In this document: positions 3,921-14,773 of the stretch, one piece after another
How the letters are laid out: the number at the start of each line of letters is the position of its first letter
Numbering within the stretch: the first letter of the stretch is position 1
The notes under the pieces: generated by a model
Database searches by the model: none
What the model was told of the DNA's origin: nothing
What the model saw: the letters and a program-made list of their open reading frames with translations, nothing else
Program-made: the position numbers and the translations under genes
Origin: a virus
Length of the DNA: 16,166 nucleotides
UHGV virus genome: UHGV-0245760
Strand: one strand, 5' to 3'

Positions 3921-5347
3921 CAATGAAATACTACGCCATTCTGACTAATCAGGGCGCGGCACGACTGGCTAACGCGACGATGCTCGGCAGTAAGCTGAAT
4001 CTGACGCAAATGGCCGTTGGTGATGCAAATGGTGTGTTACCAACACCAAACCCTGCACAAACAAAACTGATTAACCAGAAACGCATTGCACCGCTGAATC
4101 TTCTGAGTGTTGACCCTAACAATCAGAGCCAGATTATTGCGGAGCAAATCATCCCTGAAGACGAGGGAGGATTCTGGATCCGTGAGATTGGTCTTTATGA
4201 TGATAAAGGTGTACTCATTGCGGTGGCAAACTGCCCGGAAACGTACAAACCGCAGTTGCAGGAAGGCAGTGGACGCACCCAGACTATCCGCATGATTCTG
4301 GTTGTCACGAACACCAAAGCCATCACGCTGAAAATCGACCCGTCTGTGGTTCTGGCAACCCGCAAATATGTGGATGATAAAATCTCAAAGCACGAGCAGT
4401 CACGACGTCACCCGGACGCCTCGCTGACCGCAAAAGGCTTTGTTCAACTTAGCAGCGCCACGGACAGTCAATCAGAAACTGAGGCTGCCACGCCGAAGGC
4501 TGTGAAAATCGCGTATGATCTGGCCCGGGGAAAATACACAGCCCAGGATGCAACAACGACCCGTAAAGGGATCGTACAACTGAGCAGTGCCATCAACAGC
4601 ACGTCTGAAACGCTGGCCGCCACACCGAAGGCCGTCAAGGCTGCATACGACCTTGCAGCCGGCAAGGCGCCCGTCAGCCACACTCACCCGTGGAGTCAGA
4701 TAACGGGAGTGCCTGCTGCCTCGCTGACGGCAAAAGGCACCGTACAATTGAGCAGTGCCATCAACAGCACGTCTGAAATACTGGCCGCCACACCGAAAGC
4801 GGTCAAGGCTGCATACGATCTGGCAAACGGAAAACAACCGGCAGATGCCACGCTCACTGCTCTGGCAGGACTTGTCACTGCAGCAGATCGGTTGCCTTAT
4901 TTTACCGGAGCAGACCGCGCAGCGCTGGCAACCCTTACAGCTATTGGTCGCGCTATTATCGCTAAGGGCAGTATAAAAGATGTCCTCAATTACCTTGGTT
5001 TGGGAGAAGCGGCAAAAAGGAATGTGGGGACAGGGACGAATCAGATACCTGATATGGGTAGCTTCACGCTTTCTGTTTCAGGTACTGGATATCAAAAATT
5101 ACCATCTGGTTTTATTCTTCAGTGGGGCTCAATCGGCGCACCAAGCATTGCACAGGATGTGGTAACCCATTTTCCGATTGCATTTCCAAACAGATGTCTG
5201 CGTGTTTTGGTCTCACAAGACTACACACCAGATAGCGGGGCTGTTGGTTATATTGCCTGTGCAGGTTTTAGTTCCGACCCGGTTAAATTTATATCCAGAG
5301 CCAGTACTCCTGGCCTCGGCGCTTCATTTTTAGCGTTAGGCTGTTAA
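3917..5347 (+). CDS. H: tail fiber protein H: constant N-terminal part (3917-4996) fused to the currently expressed variable C-terminal cassette (4997-5347)
   Basis: 476 aa; N-terminus ([20 protein letters not shown]...MAVGDANG) is the conserved P2 H / Mu S type fiber N-terminus; internal fiber repeats; ATG overlaps I stop (ATGA). Confidence 0.85.
4418..4836 (+). repeat. three imperfect in-frame fiber-shaft repeats within H (consensus [27 protein letters not shown])
   Basis: Copies begin near 4418, 4550 and 4718; copies 2 and 3 are nearly identical at DNA level by eye. They generate spurious minus-strand ORFs 4468..4683, 4472..4837, 4696..4878. Confidence 0.7.
4983..5008. repeat. left inversion crossover site (hix/gix-like 26-bp site), core TT at 4995-4996
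   Basis: TCCTCAATTACC TT GGTTTGGGAGAA; 19 of 26 positions match the Hin hix consensus as I recall it; its inner half-site is the exact reverse complement of the half-site at 6819-6830. Confidence 0.6.
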
Positions 5348-5369
5348 TTTAGCTATATGGAGTGAAAAA

Positions 5370-5810
5370 ATGAATTACATATATTCCGCGACGACAAACT
5401 CTTTCTATCCCTTGGAGATGAAAGAGGATTACACACAAGCTGACTCATGGCCAGATGATGCTGTTGAAGTTGATGAGCAAGTGTATATTGAGTTTTCCGG
5501 ATTACCGCCGAAAGGAAAAATCCGTATCGCTGGAGAAAATGGTTTTCCTGCATGGTCTGAAATTCCACCACCAACACATGAGGAACAGATTGCTGCAGCC
5601 GAACAGGAAAAGCAGCAACTGATTAATCAGGCCAACGATTATATGAACAGTAAACAATGGCCTGGTAAAGCGGCTATTGGTCGTCTGAAAGGTGAGGAAC
5701 TGGCGCAATATAATTTGTGGCTGGATTATCTGGACGCACTGGAACTGGTCGATACTTCCGGTGCGCCAGATATTGAATGGCCTACGCCTCCGGCAGTTCA
5801 GGCCAGATGA
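5370..5810 (+). CDS. tail fiber assembly protein (Tfa / gpG / Mu U type), partner of the currently expressed fiber C-terminus
   Basis: 146 aa; follows the fiber stop by 22 nt with GGAG RBS; C-terminal motif LWLDYLDALELVDTSGAPDIEWPTPP typical of fiber assembly chaperones. Confidence 0.8.
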   Translation: MNYIYSATTNSFYPLEMKEDYTQADSWPDDAVEVDEQVYIEFSGLPPKGKIRIAGENGFPAWSEIPPPTHEEQIAAAEQEKQQLINQANDYMNSKQWPGKAAIGRLKGEELAQYNLWLDYLDALELVDTSGAPDIEWPTPPAVQAR

Positions 5811-6375
5811 CATCCGGCGCGGTGCTGGTATCTGTTGTCGTCACCGCGTCAATGTAATCAAGCACGGCGTTAAGCCGGGTGGTTTCTGCCTGCGTCAGCT
5901 TCCGCCCGGCCTGTAATTTCAGCTGAATCAGACTGATGGAAGCCATTGCAGCATCAATCAGTGACTGGCGCTGTGCTTCTGCCGCTTCTACTGCGGCACC
6001 GTGTTGTGCCTCAGTATCTGTCACCCATTTCTCACCATCCCATTTATCATATGGCGTTAACGGTGAAAGCGTGACATAACCGTTTTTGATGGCACCGATA
6101 TAATCCACTGTAACAGCAGCACCATTTTCGATTGAGTAAACAGTCTCATTGCGATGGTCTTCTTCATGGCTCCATCCCTTACCTGTAAATACTGCCACTC
6201 TTCCCGGAATGTTTTCGCCAGGGTCAATACCAGTGGAACAGGCGGGCATACTTACGCCAGTATTAATATATTCATCAGACCAGCCCGTATACTCAGATGT
6301 TTCAGCATCATAATAAAAACAACGCATATCGCCCGGCACTGTAGCCAGCCCATTTTCATCAAAAACAGGTTTCAT
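5782..6375 (-). CDS. alternative tail fiber assembly protein, silent in this orientation
   Basis: 197 aa; C-terminal LNAVLDYIDAVTTTDTSTAPDVIWPELPEA parallels the plus-strand chaperone; 3' ends of the two chaperone genes overlap at 5782-5810; its ATG (6373-6375) overlaps the stop of the upstream silent fiber cassette (TAATG). Confidence 0.75.
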   Translation of the reverse strand: MKPVFDENGLATVPGDMRCFYYDAETSEYTGWSDEYINTGVSMPACSTGIDPGENIPGRVAVFTGKGWSHEEDHRNETVYSIENGAAVTVDYIGAIKNGYVTLSPLTPYDKWDGEKWVTDTEAQHGAAVEAAEAQRQSLIDAAMASISLIQLKLQAGRKLTQAETTRLNAVLDYIDAVTTTDTSTAPDVIWPELPEA

Positions 6376-6830
6376 TATTTAGCCCTCACCAGAAAGTTAA
6401 ATGCAATATTTCGCGGTCTGACAGCAACAAAATTCACACCATCACCCAAAGAGTTACTGGTGAAATTAAATCGTGAAAATCCTGGCTGATTTCCGGCGAT
6501 GCCATCATGAAAATTAATTGCGTGTCCCGCACCTCCGCCTATATTCCCGGCAAACTGAGAAAAGTTTGTAGCTGCCTGCCAGCTTAATAATTTGCGACCA
6601 CCGTCTGCACCTCGCCCGTCATCCCAGATACGAATGAAATCACCGCGGGCTTCAGGTAATACCAGCGAAGGAAACACTTTTGCCAGCACAGGGTAATCAG
6701 AGGCAGAAAATTTCGCCCCGTTGAACTTCAAAAACACCATACTGGACCAGCTTTTGATTACGGTATCTGGCATTGCGGCGGACGGCCAGAAGAACGGAAC
6801 GCCAATAGCTGGAGAACCTTCTCCCAAACC
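6375..6830 (-). CDS. alternative tail-fiber C-terminal cassette (no own start; expressed only after inversion fuses it to H 3917-4996)
   Basis: In frame with the H constant region across the crossover: after inversion ...[20 protein letters not shown]... reads through to a stop at 6375-6377, giving a fiber of about 511 aa. The ORF-track Met at 6884 lies beyond the crossover site and is probably fortuitous. Confidence 0.6.
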   Translation of the reverse strand, partial: GLGEGSPAIGVPFFWPSAAMPDTVIKSWSSMVFLKFNGAKFSASDYPVLAKVFPSLVLPEARGDFIRIWDDGRGADGGRKLLSWQAATNFSQFAGNIGGGAGHAINFHDGIAGNQPGFSRFNFTSNSLGDGVNFVAVRPRNIAFNFLVRAK

Positions 6831-6844
6831 AACGTTTTCGTTTT
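6819..6844. repeat. right inversion crossover site, core AA at 6831-6832
   Basis: TTCTCCCAAACC AA CGTTTTCGTTTT; 6819-6835 is the reverse complement of 4992-5008 with one mismatch (16 of 17). Confidence 0.6.
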
Positions 6845-6898
6845 TATCCCTACCTATACCAACTCTGTATTTTTCACGAAACAAAGAGGATGTTTTTT

Positions 6899-7498
6899 AT
6901 GCAAATTGGCTATATTCGTGTGTCAACAAACGACCAGAACACGGATTTACAACGCAATGCACTGAACTGCGCAGGATGTGAACTGATTTTTGAAGATAAA
7001 ATCAGCGGAACGAAATCAACCAGACCGGGATTGAAAAAACTGCTCAGAACGCTATCAGAAGGAGATACGCTGGTTGTCTGGAAGCTGGACAGACTGGGCA
7101 GAAGTATGAAACACCTGATCACGCTTATTGAGGAATTGCGGGAAAAAGGTGTTAATTTCCGTAGTCTGACGGACAGCATTGACACGTCAACACCCATGGG
7201 GCGTTTCTTTTTTCACGTCATGGGGGCTTTAGCCGAAATGGAACGTGAATTAATTGTAGAACGTACACTGGCCGGGCTGGCAGCAGCACGCGCACAAGGA
7301 CGCATTGGCGGACGTCGCCCGAAGTTGACAAAAGAACAACACGAGCAAATAGCAAGGCTGATTAAAAACGGTCATGACAGGAAACAACTGGCGATCATTT
7401 ACGACATCGGCATATCGACGATTTATCGTTATCACCCTGTAGGCGATATACAGGCTGAAGCAACAACCAGGCAGACTCAGGAAAATGAAAACCGCTAA
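6899..7498 (+). CDS. serine-recombinase DNA invertase (Hin/Gin/Cin/Pin family)
   Basis: N-terminus MQIGYIRVSTNDQNTDLQRNAL matches the invertase catalytic-serine region; resolvase-type core (LVVWKLDRLGRSMKHL) and C-terminal HTH (GISTIYRY). AGAGGA RBS 8 nt upstream of ATG 6899; the ORF-track start at 6890 is less likely. Confidence 0.9.
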   Translation: MQIGYIRVSTNDQNTDLQRNALNCAGCELIFEDKISGTKSTRPGLKKLLRTLSEGDTLVVWKLDRLGRSMKHLITLIEELREKGVNFRSLTDSIDTSTPMGRFFFHVMGALAEMERELIVERTLAGLAAARAQGRIGGRRPKLTKEQHEQIARLIKNGHDRKQLAIIYDIGISTIYRYHPVGDIQAEATTRQTQENENR

Positions 7499-7524
7499 TC
7501 TGACCATTAGCGGTTTTGCGTTAA

Positions 7525-8013
7525 TCAAAACAGCCCTTTAACGGAGCTGGCCGCGCTGTTAAGGGATGATGTGACCTTATCTTTGAAGCCGGACAGCATA
7601 TCACTGAACGATGAGGATTGCAGGCGCTCCCGCAAATCCTCATCACAGCGTTCAAGGGTCAGTGAAAATTCTATCTTTTTCGCCTTACCGTAGCGATCAA
7701 ACTCGGAACGGGTCGTATTCGTTTCGGTCAGGACATACATGCCGTAAATCTGCCCGACACCATCAATCAGAGGCCAGGGGCGTCCTGTATATGCCTGCGT
7801 GGTCAGCAACGAAAGCGACACTTCGCCACCTGTAATTTCAGGATAAAGCACGCCTGAAAGCACGATGCGATCATCACCTGCACCGATATACTGCCAGCTT
7901 GCTGAACGGTTAACGCGTTCATTTTTCACATGCCGCCAGCTTTTGCTTTGCTGTAACTGCTGATGCGGCAACGTGCGCAGCTCAAAAACAAACATGCCGT
8001 AGATCATCATCAT
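7525..8013 (-). CDS. U: tail protein U (tail terminator)
   Basis: gpU-like (MMMIYGMFVFELRTLPHQQLQ...); GAGGAG RBS upstream; start taken at the third ATG (8011-8013) for RBS spacing, but 8017-8019 is possible. Confidence 0.8.
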   Translation of the reverse strand: MMMIYGMFVFELRTLPHQQLQQSKSWRHVKNERVNRSASWQYIGAGDDRIVLSGVLYPEITGGEVSLSLLTTQAYTGRPWPLIDGVGQIYGMYVLTETNTTRSEFDRYGKAKKIEFSLTLERCDEDLRERLQSSSFSDMLSGFKDKVTSSLNSAASSVKGLF

Positions 8014-8025
8014 GGCCATGACTCC

Positions 8026-10974
8026 TCAATCTTTATCGTAAAAACTGCCACGCCCGGCACGGGCGCGCCGTTCCATTTCTGCCCTGACCATTTCACCGAC
8101 CAGTTTCGCCAGTTCGCGGGGATTCTGCGTAACAACGTTATGCAGATGAACATGAATTTCACCACCAAATCCGGAGGCAACAGGCTCCCGGTTACGGGAA
8201 GTTACAGGAACTGATGCCACTGGCGATCGTATGGCCTCCGCCACCGGGCGGGAGCTGGCCGCAACAACAGGGACCAGCGCCGGAGGCAGCGGAGCCGGGA
8301 CCACGGGTGTGGTATTAATTGCGGGGGCAGGCTTACTGACCTGCGCAATCTTCCGCTCCTGCCACTCCCCACCAGGGACCAGCGCCAGAGGCAGCGGAGC
8401 AGGGACCACGGGTGTGATATTAATTGCGGAGGCAGGCTTACTGACCTGCGCAATCTTCCGCTCCTGCCACTCCCCACGAACGGCAAGTGCGCGGGGCAGG
8501 TTCTTAAAGACAATATCACCGGGGCCAATGCGTTTTTTCGTCTCATCAACCAGCTTACCTGTGTTATCAGCAATTTTGCTGAGTCTGCGTAGCGTACCGG
8601 TATTGCTGTCTGTGAGCGGTTTGTTGTCTTTGGGTTTATCGCCTCCGGTGCCATTGCCATTTTCCGCAGACTTCGGCGGATTGATTTTCGCAATGTCTCC
8701 CTGAAACAGAGCAACCTTGTCCTGAAGAATGGCCGCACGCTGTGCGTCTTCAATTTTCTTGCGCGCCCTTTCCGCTTCATCCGGAAGGACGCCAAGTTTT
8801 TCAAGTATCCACGCCAGCGTATCCAGTAGCATTTTTGCAGGTGTCAGAACAAGCTGTAACGCACCGCCAAGAACGTTACCGAATATCTCGCCAGCACTGG
8901 TACATTTATCCAGCGTTTCCTTGCTGGACTCCATCGGTGACAGCAGCGATTTAAACCAGTTAAAGACCTGAATAATCCCATCGCGCACGACATCAAAAAC
9001 AGGACCGAACCGTTCAAAGGTTTCGCGCAACGGAGCCAGTCGTTCCATAATCCCGTTGAACACCCCGATATAAAACGCCTTGATGGGTTCCCAGTATTTC
9101 CAGATGAGAACTGCCGCAGCCACAAACGCGGCAACAATCAATCCGACCGGACTGAACAGCGCCCCGATAGCGCCACCCAGCAACGAGATGGAACCTGTTA
9201 CCATTCCCCATAGTGCTGGCAGCACCCTGACGACATTCATTGATCCTGTCAGGAGAGAAAAACCGAGACGTAACGTAGCCAGCTTCCCGTGAAGCACCCC
9301 AATAACCAGAGACAACGAACCAACCGTTGCTGTTGTCGCCAGCAGTGCGCCTCCCGCTATCAGTAACTGGCGCGTCAGTACCGGATGGGCCTGCGCCAGC
9401 GCCGTCACCTTTGAGACCACCCGCGTGAGCCACTGCGTGACAGAACGCAGCGGACCGTCAATCAGATCTGCAATGCGGATGCGCAACCCTTCCCATGCAC
9501 TGCCGAGTGATTTCAGATCGCCATCAAGGTTGTTGGCCATAACCTTTGCCGTGCGTTCAGCCTCACCGCGTGCGCCCTCAAGTTCTTTTCTCAGTTTGGG
9601 TAAGGAACCGTCACCCGCCGCATCAACGAGTGCCATAAACGATGTGAAAGCCTCTTCCCCGGCGATGTCCTTAAAGAAGGATACCCGGTCAACTTCCCCG
9701 TATTTGCGGGTAGCTTTATAAAGGTCAGCCAGCAGATCTTCCATCGGGCGCATTTTGCCCCCGGCATCCGAGACGGACACGCCCAGCTCTTTCAGAGCTT
9801 CTGCCGCCGCCTTTGGCGGTGATGCCAGACGAGCCAGGCTGGCACGCATTGCCGTCCCGGCATCACTCCCTCTGATGCCCATATTCGCCAGCACGCCCGC
9901 CATCGCTGCGGCCTGCTCCAGCGATATCCCCAGCTTACCCGCCACCGGACCGGCATATTTCATGGTTTCGCCCAGTGCGCGAAGGTCAGTGTTGGTACGG
10001 GTAAACGCTGCGGTGAGTGTGTCTCCGACCCGGTCCATCTGGTCAGCAGAAAGGCCGAACTGCGTCAGGATATTTGAGCCAATATCTGCCGTCTCGCCGA
10101 GATCCATACCGCCAGCCGTTGCCATGCTCAGTACGCCGGGAAGCGCAGCCTGAATGGCCTGCGGAGTGAAGCCTGCCATTGCAAGAAATGCCTGCCCACT
10201 GGCGGCATCGCCTGCGGTGAACTGCGTTTCAGAGCCAAGTTTTAACGCCTGCTCACGCAGCGCCTTAAACTGCAGGCTGTTTTTGTCGATTCGCGTCAGT
10301 GCCTGAACGCGGGACATCTCTTTCCCGAACCCGATCGCAGGCTGCAAAAAACGCCCGGCAGCATAGCCGCCAGCCGCTGCCGCACCAATTGCCAGCGCAC
10401 CACCTGTTTTCAGTTTTCCTGCTGTTTCCTGCGCGCGCGAATACCGCTCACGCGCACGCGTTACACGCGCAAGCGCCTGCCGTTCGCGTTCAAGCTGATT
10501 GTTGTACTGTTCGGTGCGTCTGATGGCCTGCTGGATGGTGTTATCGCTGCCTGTCAGGGAAATGCCGTGGCGTTTCAGCTCTCCGCCAAGCTCCCGCATT
10601 TTCTGAATTTCCCGTGTGCGCGATTCATTCAGGCGTTCAAGCCGGGTGCTTAACTGCTGCATCAGCTTTTGTTGTTTTTCGCTGAGCACTGTACCCGTGC
10701 GTTGTAACTGATTAAGGGCGTTAAGCTGGCGTCGTGCTTTCACGATGCCAGCATCCGCTTTACTGACAGCGTCACGGGCGCGCTCAAATGAACGCGCCTG
10801 ACGCTCGAGATTTTTGATCGCCCCCTGCGTTCGCTGGATGGAGTCACCAAACTGCCCCATCAGGCGGCGGGCGTTTTCGGCAGGCCGGGTCAGCCTGTCA
10901 ACGGCGCTGAAAGCGACCCGGATATCAAGAGTCTTCATTGTCTGCATTCCCGCTGCGAAGTGCCGCCCGCTCAC
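8026..10974 (-). CDS. T: tail tape measure protein T
   Basis: 982-aa ORF, long helical N-terminal half, hydrophobic Gly-rich central segments, position between E' and U. The 10974 start is GTG; internal ATGs at 10945-10947 and 10936-10938 are alternative starts. Confidence 0.85.
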   Translation of the reverse strand: MSGRHFAAGMQTMKTLDIRVAFSAVDRLTRPAENARRLMGQFGDSIQRTQGAIKNLERQARSFERARDAVSKADAGIVKARRQLNALNQLQRTGTVLSEKQQKLMQQLSTRLERLNESRTREIQKMRELGGELKRHGISLTGSDNTIQQAIRRTEQYNNQLERERQALARVTRARERYSRAQETAGKLKTGGALAIGAAAAGGYAAGRFLQPAIGFGKEMSRVQALTRIDKNSLQFKALREQALKLGSETQFTAGDAASGQAFLAMAGFTPQAIQAALPGVLSMATAGGMDLGETADIGSNILTQFGLSADQMDRVGDTLTAAFTRTNTDLRALGETMKYAGPVAGKLGISLEQAAAMAGVLANMGIRGSDAGTAMRASLARLASPPKAAAEALKELGVSVSDAGGKMRPMEDLLADLYKATRKYGEVDRVSFFKDIAGEEAFTSFMALVDAAGDGSLPKLRKELEGARGEAERTAKVMANNLDGDLKSLGSAWEGLRIRIADLIDGPLRSVTQWLTRVVSKVTALAQAHPVLTRQLLIAGGALLATTATVGSLSLVIGVLHGKLATLRLGFSLLTGSMNVVRVLPALWGMVTGSISLLGGAIGALFSPVGLIVAAFVAAAVLIWKYWEPIKAFYIGVFNGIMERLAPLRETFERFGPVFDVVRDGIIQVFNWFKSLLSPMESSKETLDKCTSAGEIFGNVLGGALQLVLTPAKMLLDTLAWILEKLGVLPDEAERARKKIEDAQRAAILQDKVALFQGDIAKINPPKSAENGNGTGGDKPKDNKPLTDSNTGTLRRLSKIADNTGKLVDETKKRIGPGDIVFKNLPRALAVRGEWQERKIAQVSKPASAINITPVVPAPLPLALVPGGEWQERKIAQVSKPAPAINTTPVVPAPLPPALVPVVAASSRPVAEAIRSPVASVPVTSRNREPVASGFGGEIHVHLHNVVTQNPRELAKLVGEMVRAEMERRARAGRGSFYDKD
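8269..8478 (-). repeat. in-frame tandem duplication (2 x 105 bp) within the 3' part of the tape measure gene
   Basis: Units 8269-8373 and 8374-8478 differ at only a few positions; encodes GEWQERKIAQVSKPA-AINITPVVPAPLP-ALVP twice; explains shadow ORFs 8231..8704 (+) and 8202..8804 (-). Confidence 0.75.
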
Positions 10975-11454
10975 GCCAGCTAACCACTTCGCCGGGCGTC
11001 ATCATGAAGATTTCAGCGGGCGACCAGTTAAAAATAACGGCAATATCTGCCACAAAGTCTTCTATGTGCTCAAAGCACACAACCGTGATCAGGCTTCCGT
11101 CGCCTGTTCGTTCTTCCCGCCAGAGTCCGCACCGCTCAAAAAATTTACGGCAACCACACATAACTGAATAAAGTCACGGGATGCCATTTTTTTGATCGTC
11201 ACTTCATCCAGTCGCGGTGATGTCACGCGTGACAGCAGCGTAAACATGGATTCCGCTTTCAGATTCAGCACATCAGACAACGACAAATCTCGCAGAGATC
11301 CAGCCTGCTCAATAGCTCCGGTGATCTCCACATACGTGATTTTTTCGCCGCCTCGCTCAATTGGTTGGGTAAGTTTTACGCCACGCTCACTGGTTTCTTT
11401 CACAGTGTCAGTAACTACCGTGTTTTCGGTATCGATGTTTTTCGTCTCTTTCAT
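10925..11454 (-). CDS. E+E' tail assembly chaperone made by programmed -1 frameshift (E frame to 11137, then -1 frame to stop at 10925-10927)
   Basis: Slippery heptamer T_TTT_TTG in the E frame; the -1 frame continues as FFERCGLWREERTGDG... (ORF-track 10925..11161) and overlaps the start of T, as in P2. Confidence 0.6.
11089..11454 (-). CDS. E: tail assembly chaperone E (zero-frame product)
   Basis: Position between FII and T; contains the slippery site near its 3' end; start position not verified. Confidence 0.65.
   Translation of the reverse strand: MKETKNIDTENTVVTDTVKETSERGVKLTQPIERGGEKITYVEITGAIEQAGSLRDLSLSDVLNLKAESMFTLLSRVTSPRLDEVTIKKMASRDFIQLCVVAVNFLSGADSGGKNEQATEA
11137..11143 (-). 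promoter_or_regulatory. -1 ribosomal frameshift slippery heptamer T_TTT_TTG (plus strand CAAAAAA)
   Basis: Zero-frame codons AAT TTT TTG; shifting back one nucleotide gives TTT TTT GAG, joining E to E'. Confidence 0.55.
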
Positions 11455-11508
11455 CAGGAAACTCCTTTCAGTCAGAGGCGACGCACTGCGCCGCCTGCAT
11501 ATTACTTA

Positions 11509-12021
11509 TCAGCCAAGCCCAAGCGCGGAACGGATACGGTCAGGCACAATGTCCTTGCCGTCCTTCCGGTAAATGAAGTTCAGCAGGTCAATCTCCCACA
11601 ACGGGCGATCGTTAACACTCAGCTTGTAGTAGGTGTTTTTAATGGCGTAAGTGTGTGATGTGGCTTCGCCCTGTTTGGCTTCCCCCATATCAATTTCCGT
11701 CACACGTCCGCGCATTTCGACTTCATACAGGTCGCTTTCTGCATCGGTGTAGTATTCACCCGCAAAACGCAGCAGCGTGCCGTCAATCGTGCCGCCATAC
11801 TTAAGGAACAGCTCACGAACTGCGCCCCCCATGACAAAGCTCGCATCAAGCGCGGAGTCGTCCAGACCGAGATCAATACTTACCGCACCCATCATGCCAC
11901 CACCCCGGTAGCTGTCGGTTTTGCGCGTCAGTTTAGGCAGAGTGACGGACGTCACCTTACCCACTTCGTTTTCACCATCCACAAACAGCGTAAAAAAGCG
12001 AAGATGTTTTGGTACAGCCAT
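11509..12021 (-). CDS. FII: tail tube protein FII
   Basis: 170 aa, gpFII-like (MAVPKHLRFFTLFVDGE...); start overlaps FI stop (ATGA at 12021). Confidence 0.85.
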   Translation of the reverse strand: MAVPKHLRFFTLFVDGENEVGKVTSVTLPKLTRKTDSYRGGGMMGAVSIDLGLDDSALDASFVMGGAVRELFLKYGGTIDGTLLRFAGEYYTDAESDLYEVEMRGRVTEIDMGEAKQGEATSHTYAIKNTYYKLSVNDRPLWEIDLLNFIYRKDGKDIVPDRIRSALGLG

Positions 12022-13205
12022 CAGGCACCTCCCAGCACCGCAAATGCGGGACCAAAGAATTCATCAGTAAACGACTGGTAAAGCTCCATGTCTTCCAGCG
12101 GGGGAACTGGCGTATATTTGTAGCGAATACGCACACGTCCCTGACGTAAACCCGTGGTGCTGTTATCCACCACGTCATACCAGCACTCCGCGCCAATCAG
12201 TTTCCCGGCAGTAACCAGTGAATCCAGTTTTGCCCTGATGGCACTGATAACATCCTTCACGTTCGCAGGCGTCAGTGGACTGTCGATGGTTTCAAACTGC
12301 GCTTCCGCAATTGAATCAGCCAGCACCTGTGCGGTTCGGGTATACACCTCAAAGATGTAGGCGTTCGTTTCCGGTGTGCGGTTGCCCCAGAAGCGGAACC
12401 CGTTACGACGAATAATGGTCGTGATTTCTTTGTTGTTAAGGCTGTTGGCATCGCTGTCTTCGGCCTGCAACGACCAGAACACATGCCGGGACATCCCCAG
12501 CACATTTTTAACCGGAACGTTGGACAGTGATTTGTGCCAGCCCTGCTCATGGTCAATGTACGCACGAAGGCCGCACGCATAAGCAGGCGCGGGGAACGTT
12601 TCGTTTTTGCCACTTTTCGGGTTGTAGGCGATGAAGTCCGGCCATAAGAGCATCACCTCACGTTCGTTGAATTTCTGGCGGTAGGTAATTGCCTCTGCCA
12701 TCGTGTTACAGCCATGACATGAGGCATACACAAACGCGCGCAGTTTACCCGCAATCACGCACAGGGATTTTGTCACCGCCTCCGTGTCCAGCTCCGGCGC
12801 GGCCAGAATACGCGGACGGTATCCGATGCTTTCATCCTGCTCTGCAACAAGCAGCGCATACATCCCCGTATAGCTGCCGTCAGATTCAGAACCACCGATA
12901 ACCAGTTGATCCTGCGTCTTTCCGTTTTCTTCTTTGTGTTCAGCCACGCGAACGACGATCACCTTTGTGCTCACCTGGTCTGCGATGGCCTTAAGCGCAC
13001 GATAAAGCGTCCCCGTTGTCCCGCATTTTCCCAGCACGTCATTGACGCGGGTCAGCAGTGTGGGCTTGTTCAGCGGGAACAGCTTCGCGTCCGCATCATC
13101 CGCCGTTGCCACGATACCGATAACGCTGGAATCAACATCGTTAATCGCTGTTACCAGGTCGGTACTTTCCGTAACACGGGCACCATGAAAACGAGTTTCA
13201 CTCAT
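12021..13205 (-). CDS. FI: contractile tail sheath protein FI
   Basis: 394 aa, sheath-like throughout; AAGGGG RBS about 10 nt upstream of ATG 13203-13205. Confidence 0.9.
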   Translation of the reverse strand: MSETRFHGARVTESTDLVTAINDVDSSVIGIVATADDADAKLFPLNKPTLLTRVNDVLGKCGTTGTLYRALKAIADQVSTKVIVVRVAEHKEENGKTQDQLVIGGSESDGSYTGMYALLVAEQDESIGYRPRILAAPELDTEAVTKSLCVIAGKLRAFVYASCHGCNTMAEAITYRQKFNEREVMLLWPDFIAYNPKSGKNETFPAPAYACGLRAYIDHEQGWHKSLSNVPVKNVLGMSRHVFWSLQAEDSDANSLNNKEITTIIRRNGFRFWGNRTPETNAYIFEVYTRTAQVLADSIAEAQFETIDSPLTPANVKDVISAIRAKLDSLVTAGKLIGAECWYDVVDNSTTGLRQGRVRIRYKYTPVPPLEDMELYQSFTDEFFGPAFAVLGGA

Positions 13206-13362
13206 AGCTTCAGCCCCTTGTATCCGTTAAATGATTCGGCAACAATCATCACCCACCACGCGCGTAATCTCACCCCTGCGCCGTTCTCCCGCCACGGCGA
13301 CAACAAAAAGCAGTAACCCCCTCCGCACGCACATGCGACCATGCCGCACAGGGAGGGAGCAG

Positions 13363-14472
13363 ATGACCGACACCACCATGCAATTGCTCAGTCAGGGCAC
13401 AGACCCCGTAAAAATGCCGGATTTTGATATTCTCGCGGAGGGTAAAACGCTGTCAGGCGTGGCAGAGCGCCTGATGAGCCTGTCACTGACCGACAACCGG
13501 GGATTTGACGCGGACCAGCTCACCATCACGCTGGATGATGCGGATGGTCAGTTGCAGCTACCGCCACGGGGCGCGCGCCTGACGGTTCTCATTGGCTGGA
13601 AAGGAGAACCGCTGACAGAAAAAGGCACTTACATTGTTGATGAAATCGCTCACGAAGGACCGCCGGACAGGCTGACTGTTTCAGCCAGAAGCGCAGATTT
13701 TCGGGATGAATTTAACGTTAAACGTGAGGTGTCCTGGCATGATGTGACCGTTGAGCGTGTGGTATCCGCCATCGCTCATCGGTATGGTCTGAAACCGCAA
13801 ATCAGCGAAATGCTGATGGATATCGAAATCGACCACGCCGACCAGACCGAAGAAAGCGACATGTCCTTCCTTACGCGCATGGCGGAAATGCTGGGCGCAA
13901 TCACCACGGTAAAAAGCGGCAATCTGTTATTCATCATGCCAGGTGGTGGCGTGAACGCACAGGGCCAGCCGTTGCCCTCGTTCGCCATTACACGCAGCAG
14001 CGGCGATCGCCATCAGTTCCGCATTGCTGACCGCGAGGCGTATACGGGGGTACGCGCCTACTGGCTTGATCTTAATTACGGGAAAAAGAAAAAAGTCAGC
14101 GTGAAACGCCGTAAACCGCCAAAACCCAAAAAGGAGAAAAGCAGCAGCCGTGAAGGTGATTATATGGAAGGCGCGGAAGGCAATGTGTTTGTGTTACGCA
14201 AGACTTATCAGAACGAGCAGGCAGCAAGACGCGCAGCGGCGGCAAAGTGGCAGCAACTACAACGCGGAGCCGCATCATTCTCCATCACGCTGGCGCGTGG
14301 ACGTGCAGAACTCTACCCCGAAATGCATGGCACGGTAACAGGATTTAAAAGCGAGATTGATAATAAGGACTGGATCATTGCAAAAGCCGAGCACACCATT
14401 GATAACAGCGGTTTTACCACGCAGCTTGAGCTTGAGGCAAAAATCCCGGAATGGATAGCGGAAACAGAGTGA
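13363..14472 (+). CDS. D: P2 gpD-like tail protein
   Basis: gpD-like motifs (LTITLDDADGQLQLPPRGARLTV, DEIAHEGPPDRLTVSARSADF, ESDMSFLTRMAE, ITRSSGDRHQF, KWQQLQRGAASFSITLARGR). Start chosen at ATG 13363 with GGGAGG RBS; the ORF-track 13231 extension is not preferred. Confidence 0.85.
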   Translation: MTDTTMQLLSQGTDPVKMPDFDILAEGKTLSGVAERLMSLSLTDNRGFDADQLTITLDDADGQLQLPPRGARLTVLIGWKGEPLTEKGTYIVDEIAHEGPPDRLTVSARSADFRDEFNVKREVSWHDVTVERVVSAIAHRYGLKPQISEMLMDIEIDHADQTEESDMSFLTRMAEMLGAITTVKSGNLLFIMPGGGVNAQGQPLPSFAITRSSGDRHQFRIADREAYTGVRAYWLDLNYGKKKKVSVKRRKPPKPKKEKSSSREGDYMEGAEGNVFVLRKTYQNEQAARRAAAAKWQQLQRGAASFSITLARGRAELYPEMHGTVTGFKSEIDNKDWIIAKAEHTIDNSGFTTQLELEAKIPEWIAETE

Positions 14473-14512
14473 GCAACTTAGAATAGGCAGCACCACGTTA
14501 AGGGAGGTCGCT

Positions 14513-14773
14513 ATGTTCCGTTGTCCGCTTTGTGGCGCATCTGCCCGTATCCGCACCAGTCGTCCGGAAAATGATTCAAACACCGTGCGGCAAAAGTATT
14601 ACCAGTGTAACAATCTGGAATGCGGCGTATGCTTCTCAACACTGGAAGCTTTCCATAAATTCACATCAAAACACGCCTCCGGCGTTCACTCTTCAGAAGG
14701 TATCCCGTGGCATGAGCTGCCAGCTTCACACAGGGGAAACAATCAGATGAGTTTGCCTTTATCTCAGAATTAA
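14513..14773 (+). CDS. ogr: Ogr/Delta-family zinc-finger late transcription activator
   Basis: MFRCPLCGASARIRTSR...YYQCNNLECGVCF: CxxC...CxxxxC zinc finger in the P2 Ogr arrangement; GGGAGG RBS; sits right after D as in P2. Confidence 0.8.
   Translation: MFRCPLCGASARIRTSRPENDSNTVRQKYYQCNNLECGVCFSTLEAFHKFTSKHASGVHSSEGIPWHELPASHRGNNQMSLPLSQN

What the first reader, a model, noticed from the sequence alone, without database searches (positions are those of the whole stretch)
7499..13362. Sheath-tube-tape-measure operon (FI-FII-E-E'-T-U) is inverted relative to both flanking late-gene blocks
In P2, 186 and R-type pyocin clusters as I recall them, the order is V W J I H G, then FI FII E T U D ogr, all on one strand. 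Here V-G and D-ogr are on the plus strand but FI through U lie on the minus strand between them. U therefore ends convergently against the invertase gene, and FI starts divergently 157 bp from D. If real, D and ogr cannot be co-transcribed with the F operon and D needs its own promoter. The inversion endpoints fall exactly at the invertase/U and FI/D junctions. All genes in the block look intact, so the module may still be functional.
Basis: partly seen in the sequence, partly recalled or inferred. Interest (0 to 1): 0.5.

Follow-up and report, generated by a model that had tools for sequence, protein, structure and literature searches.

The report
Fixed tail-operon inversion in P88-like prophages
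The sheath-to-U tail gene block really is flipped relative to phage P2, but this is the normal inherited gene order of a large, functional group of P2-like phages found in about a quarter of complete E. coli genomes, not a private rearrangement or an assembly error.

Summary
U, T, E/E', FII and FI (7525-13205) lie on the minus strand between plus-strand V-W-J-I-H-G-invertase and plus-strand D-ogr. The same order occurs in the plaque-forming phages P88 and PhiSM and in SEN5. It also occurs in 57 prophage loci from about 25 genera of Enterobacterales. The FI/D junction is spanned intact in 1,358 of 5,426 complete E. coli genomes. In D, FI and U trees the inverted loci form one clade; P2, phiCTX and a Mannheimia phage keep the P2 order. 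This fits a single old inversion. The inversion is independent of the invertase: most inverted loci lack one, and the only two crossover sites in the window flank the tail-fibre segment (4992-6835). The 157-bp FI/D spacer holds a conserved Ogr-type dyad (TCT-N12-ACA, 13285-13302). Conserved -10-like hexamers end exactly 48.5 nt from its centre on both sides, as at P2's divergent pP/pO promoters. P2-order relatives have the hexamer on the FI side only. A hairpin at 7488-7517 looks like a bidirectional terminator. This is an ordinary lineage trait of low novelty.

The parts
6890..7498 (+). Serine DNA invertase. It flanks the inverted block on the left and belongs to the tail-fibre switch, not to the inversion.
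   Evidence: Pfam Resolvase 2.5e-51 plus HTH_7. Its only two crossover sites are at 4992-5009 and 6818-6835.
7488..7517 (.). Perfect 12-bp-stem hairpin AAAACCGCTAAT-N6-ATTAGCGGTTTT between the convergent invertase and U genes. Predicted bidirectional intrinsic terminator.
   Evidence: Sequence. Terminator-like hit on the minus strand. dG -16.9 and -15.6 kcal/mol, z -4.6 and -4.2, on the two strands.
7525..8019 (-). gpU homologue, last gene of the inverted operon.
   Evidence: Pfam Phage_P2_GpU 5e-39. 46% identity to P2 U.
8026..10974 (-). Tape measure protein, gpT homologue. The ORF is 982 aa from the first GTG; the real start may be internal.
   Evidence: Pfam PhageMin_Tail 7.6e-58. 33% identity to P2 T.
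10925..11454 (-). E (11454->11089) and the E+E' frameshift product. The slippery heptamer T TTT TTG lies at 11143->11137 in the E frame. The -1 frame stays open to the stop at 10925.
   Evidence: 32% identity to P2 E. Sequence read. ORF 10925-11161. P2 annotates the same -1 frameshift.
11509..12021 (-). Tail tube protein, FII homologue.
   Evidence: Pfam Phage_tube 7.5e-47. 42% identity to P2 FII.
12021..13205 (-). Tail sheath protein, FI homologue, first gene of the inverted operon.
   Evidence: Pfam sheath domains. 45% identity to P2 FI.
13245..13250 (-). Predicted -10 hexamer GATGAT of the FI (PF) late promoter. Predicted transcription start near 13238.
   Evidence: The hexamer ends 48.5 nt from the dyad centre. 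An xAxxxT hexamer sits at this exact distance in 55 of 56 inverted loci and in 13 of 14 P2-order relatives.
13285..13302 (.). Ogr-type activator dyad TCTcccgccacggcgACA (T[G/C]T-N12-ACA), centre 13293.5. Predicted to be shared by the divergent FI and D promoters.
   Evidence: Conserved at the aligned position in 51 of 56 non-redundant inverted loci. The extended motif GTTCT-N12-ACAACAAAAG matches the P88 terminase/scaffold (P/O) spacer. The TGT-N12-ACA consensus is taken from PMC3931495.
13337..13342 (+). Predicted -10 hexamer GACCAT of a D (PD) late promoter. Predicted transcription start near 13349.
   Evidence: The hexamer ends 48.5 nt from the dyad centre. An xAxxxT hexamer sits at this exact distance in 51 of 56 inverted loci and at 49.5 nt in the other 5. 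On the equivalent side of P2-order relatives it occurs in only 2 of 14.
13363..14472 (+). gpD homologue (baseplate hub/spike, late control D), now separated from U.
   Evidence: Pfam Phage_GPD. 49% identity to P2 D. Start codon and ribosome-binding sequence.
14513..14773 (+). Ogr-family zinc-finger late activator, 40 bp downstream of D.
   Evidence: Pfam Ogr_Delta 5e-14. 42% identity to P2 Ogr.

Best explanation
The window is the late tail region of a P88-like (Xuanwuvirus) P2-family prophage. In an ancestor of this lineage, the segment carrying the FI promoter and FI-FII-E/E'-T-U was inverted once. That ancestor also gave rise to Senquatrovirus and to many prophages across Enterobacterales. 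The gene order has been inherited ever since. It is not a recent event, not an assembly error, and not made or switched by the adjacent tail-fibre invertase. Inferred, not shown: the inversion placed the dyad-symmetric Ogr activator site of the FI promoter back-to-back with D. One shared site would then drive two divergent late promoters, PF leftwards for FI to U and PD rightwards for D and probably ogr. The geometry matches P2's natural divergent pP/pO pair, with transcription starts about 55 nt either side of the dyad and about 111 bp apart. The inverted operon ends in a hairpin that would terminate both it and the converging invertase/tail-fibre transcript.
For: Same gene order elsewhere. 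Phage P88 has invertase(+), U to FI(-), D(+), and the window is 94-96% identical to P88, 500465-2, P884B11, PhiSM and PhiR44_2. SEN5 (Senquatrovirus) has the same order without an invertase. All 57 genome loci whose D is at least 61% identical to the window's D have the order U- T- E- FII- FI- D+ ogr+. They come from about 25 genera. All 23 loci with D at or below 53% identity have the P2 order.

Prevalence. The FI/D junction is spanned in one alignment in 1,358 of 5,426 complete E. coli genomes, that is 1,360 of 1,375 matching records. The invertase/U junction is spanned in 631 genomes. The region 6600-14600 is colinear in 1,103 genomes.

Single origin and direction of change. In neighbour-joining trees of D, FI and U rooted on phiCTX, the inverted loci form one clade with no P2-order locus inside. 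phiCTX, a Mannheimia phage and P2 all have the P2 order.

Orthology of the block. Identity to P2 is 32-46% inside the block and 42-60% in the flanks.

Function. P88 and PhiSM are viable phages (PMC5285337, PMC6456863).

Promoter model. The dyad is conserved in 51 of 56 loci. -10-like hexamers end exactly 48.5 nt from its centre on the FI side in 55 of 56 and on the D side in 51 of 56. P2-order relatives have the hexamer on the FI side in 13 of 14 but on the opposite side in only 2 of 14. In P2, the mapped pP and pO starts (3016 and 3127) are each 55.5 nt from the centre of their shared site. The P88 P/O spacer carries the same extended motif. No sigma-70 consensus promoter lies in 13206-13362.
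Against: No transcription data exist for this lineage in anything I could search, so the PD promoter, its Ogr dependence and the terminator are sequence inferences. The window's dyad is TCT-N12-ACA, one mismatch from the P2 consensus, and its D-side hexamer GACCAT is weak (3 of 6). The neighbour-joining trees have no support values. The 80 loci are the best hits to one query, not an unbiased sample. Conservation among related sequences overstates independence. Only two outgroup genera were inspected directly.
Confidence: 0.85

Rival explanations
1. A recent, private rearrangement of this prophage, or a misassembly at one of the two junctions.
For: Only the contrast with the textbook P2 order.
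Against: Both junctions are spanned by single alignments in hundreds to more than a thousand independently finished E. coli genomes. They are also intact in isolated phage genomes.
Confidence: 0.01
2. The F-U block is a second invertible segment flipped by the adjacent serine invertase, either historically or as an ongoing switch.
For: One endpoint abuts the 3' end of the invertase gene.
Against: The crossover sequence occurs only at 4992-5009 and 6818-6835, even allowing 3 mismatches. No inverted repeat flanks 7499 and 13362. Most inverted loci have no invertase, for example SEN5 and L005-L012. Two P2-order loci have one (L062, L078). Orientation does not vary: 1,360 of 1,375 matching E. coli records keep the junction.
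Confidence: 0.01
3. The block is a foreign sheath-tube-tape-measure module acquired from another myovirus and inserted in the opposite orientation, rather than an inversion in place.
For: T and E are the most diverged from P2, at 32-33% identity.
Against: U, FII and FI (42-46%) are as close to P2 as V, W, D and ogr (42-49%). Trees of FI and U inside the block and of D outside it recover the same clade. The distance from the FI-side promoter to the FI start codon is the same as in P2-order relatives.
Confidence: 0.03
4. The divergent order is ancestral, and P2, phiCTX and the rest derive from a reverse inversion.
For: Inversions are symmetric, and rooting rests on few outgroups.
Against: Every more distant relative examined has the P2 order: P2-order Enterobacterales loci, phiCTX and a Mannheimia phage. 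The inverted loci form a single derived clade when rooted on phiCTX.
Confidence: 0.04
5. The inversion is an old lineage trait, but D and ogr are expressed from an Ogr-independent promoter or from the ogr gene's own early promoter. The FI/D spacer would then hold only the FI promoter.
For: The window's D-side hexamer is weak (GACCAT). A sigma-70-like match lies inside D at 14335-14364, upstream of ogr. P2 ogr has its own promoter.
Against: A -10-like hexamer is fixed exactly 48.5 nt from the dyad on the D side in 51 of 56 diverged loci, against 2 of 14 on the equivalent side of P2-order relatives. No sigma-70 consensus promoter lies upstream of D. D is a structural late protein that must be made together with the tail.
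Confidence: 0.15

Closest known systems
Escherichia phage P88 and relatives (genus Xuanwuvirus, Peduoviridae), including 500465-2, P884B11, PhiR44_2 and Citrobacter phage PhiSM
   Same: 94-96% nucleotide identity over 68-76% of the window. Gene order and strands are identical, including invertase(+), U to FI(-), D(+). The FI/D spacer is nearly identical.
   Different: The tail-fibre variable region and the left end of the window (before about 441) differ. The tape measure ORF reads longer here (982 aa from the first GTG, against 935 aa annotated in P88).
Bacteriophage P2 F operon (FI FII E E' T U D, promoter PF, then ogr)
   Same: Same gene set, all orthologous at 32-49% identity. The same E/E' slippery heptamer is present. 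An Ogr-type dyad lies about 80-90 nt upstream of the FI start.
   Different: In P2 the operon is co-directional with V-G and includes D. Here FI-U is inverted, D is cut off from U, and D faces FI across 157 bp.
P2 pP/pO divergent late promoters with one shared activator site (also PP'/PO' of Stenotrophomonas phage Smp131)
   Same: One dyad of TGT-N12-ACA type sits midway between two divergently transcribed late operons. -10 elements lie about 48.5 nt from the dyad centre, and starts about 55 nt from it, on each side.
   Different: In P2 and Smp131 this arrangement serves the packaging and head genes only. Here a second copy of the design is predicted at FI/D. Transcription starts are mapped in P2 and only predicted here.
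Salmonella phages SEN4/SEN5 (genus Senquatrovirus)
   Same: Same inverted FI-U block and divergent FI/D pair. D is 63% identical.
   Different: There is no invertase: the tail-fibre assembly gene converges directly on U.

Membership tests
P88-like phages (Xuanwuvirus, Peduoviridae) | High nucleotide identity to the type phage across the structural region | tested here: met
   95.1% identity over 73% of the window to P88, and 94.2% over 76% to 500465-2.
P88-like phages (Xuanwuvirus, Peduoviridae) | Same gene order and strands in the tail region | tested here: met
   The P88 annotation shows invertase(+), U-T-E'-E-FII-FI(-), D(+).
Canonical P2 F operon (single PF transcript FI to D) | Gene content FI, FII, E, E', T, U, D | tested here: met
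   Pfam and blastp against P2. Slippery heptamer for E'.
Canonical P2 F operon (single PF transcript FI to D) | All seven genes co-directional, with D immediately after U | tested here: not met
   FI-U lie on the minus strand and D on the plus strand, with D 157 bp from the FI start. In P2 the U stop overlaps the D start.
Canonical P2 F operon (single PF transcript FI to D) | Ogr-type activator site about -55 upstream of FI | tested here: met
   TCT-N12-ACA at 13285-13302, 88.5 nt from the FI ATG. P2-order relatives have 79.5-86.5 nt. This is a sequence match only.
Invertase-controlled invertible DNA segment (Hin/Gin/Cin/Pin type), as an explanation for the F-U block | Inverted crossover sites at both ends of the segment | tested here: not met
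   Sites occur only at 4992-5009 and 6818-6835, with none near 7499 or 13362 at up to 3 mismatches. No flanking inverted repeat.
Invertase-controlled invertible DNA segment (Hin/Gin/Cin/Pin type), as an explanation for the F-U block | Both orientations found among close relatives or within populations | tested here: not met
   1,360 of 1,375 matching E. coli records keep the FI/D junction. All 57 clade loci share one orientation. Within-population reads could not be tested.
Bidirectional Ogr-dependent late promoter (P2 pP/pO type) | A single dyad-symmetric activator site between divergent late operons | tested here: met
   One conserved dyad in the 157-bp spacer, present in 51 of 56 loci.
Bidirectional Ogr-dependent late promoter (P2 pP/pO type) | -10 elements and starts placed symmetrically (about 48.5 and 55.5 nt) on both sides | tested here: met
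   Hexamers at 48.5 nt: FI side 55 of 56, D side 51 of 56. P2-order controls: 13 of 14 and 2 of 14. P2 mapped starts are at +/-55.5.
Bidirectional Ogr-dependent late promoter (P2 pP/pO type) | Mapped transcription starts and dependence on the Ogr protein | not testable with these tools
   Needs 5'-end mapping and reporter or binding assays.

The most novel reading that the evidence does not exclude
The ancestral inversion created a second bidirectional Ogr-dependent late promoter. The dyad that activates the sheath operon was co-opted to drive D, and probably ogr itself, in the opposite direction. This would rewire the P2 late circuit from PP/PO + PV + PF to two symmetric divergent pairs (PP/PO and PF/PD) and put late ogr expression under PD. 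The papers on P88, PhiSM, SEN4/5 and Serratia PP4 that I could read do not mention either the inversion or such a promoter.
Probability: 0.6. Interest if true: 0.3.

Novelty: already known. Interest (0 to 1): 0.15.

Why it matters
It matters mainly as a correction. Anyone using P2 as the template for annotating P2-like prophages should expect this gene order in a large share of enterobacterial genomes and should not flag it as a rearrangement or misassembly. The secondary point is a clean natural example of how a dyad-symmetric activator site lets an operon be split by inversion without losing co-regulation. That yields a directly testable prediction: two starts about 111 bp apart around 13293.

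Tried and rejected
1. Inverted repeats at the block ends: none found. The only meaningful pair, I20, flanks the tail-fibre segment.

2. Extra invertase crossover sites, allowing up to 3 mismatches: none.

3. An exact TGT-N12-ACA scan of the window gave only two hits, both outside the block, and fewer than chance expects. The real site has TCT and was found only by aligning 56 relatives.

4. Sigma-70 consensus scan: nothing in the FI/D spacer.

5. Rfam at gathering thresholds: no RNA family anywhere in the window.

6. Literature: four papers on P88, PhiSM, SEN4/5 and Serratia PP4 were searched for inversion, orientation and rearrangement terms, with no mention.

7. A crude test for a conserved terminator downstream of U in the relatives. 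By my reading of the per-locus output, 47 of 52 have a hairpin of -10 kcal/mol or better within 90 nt. My T-tract criterion was unreliable and there was no background control, so I do not lean on this.

8. Foreign-module replacement was rejected on per-gene identities and congruent trees.

9. The large protein-database, structure-prediction and fold-search tools were not used, because every gene was already identified.
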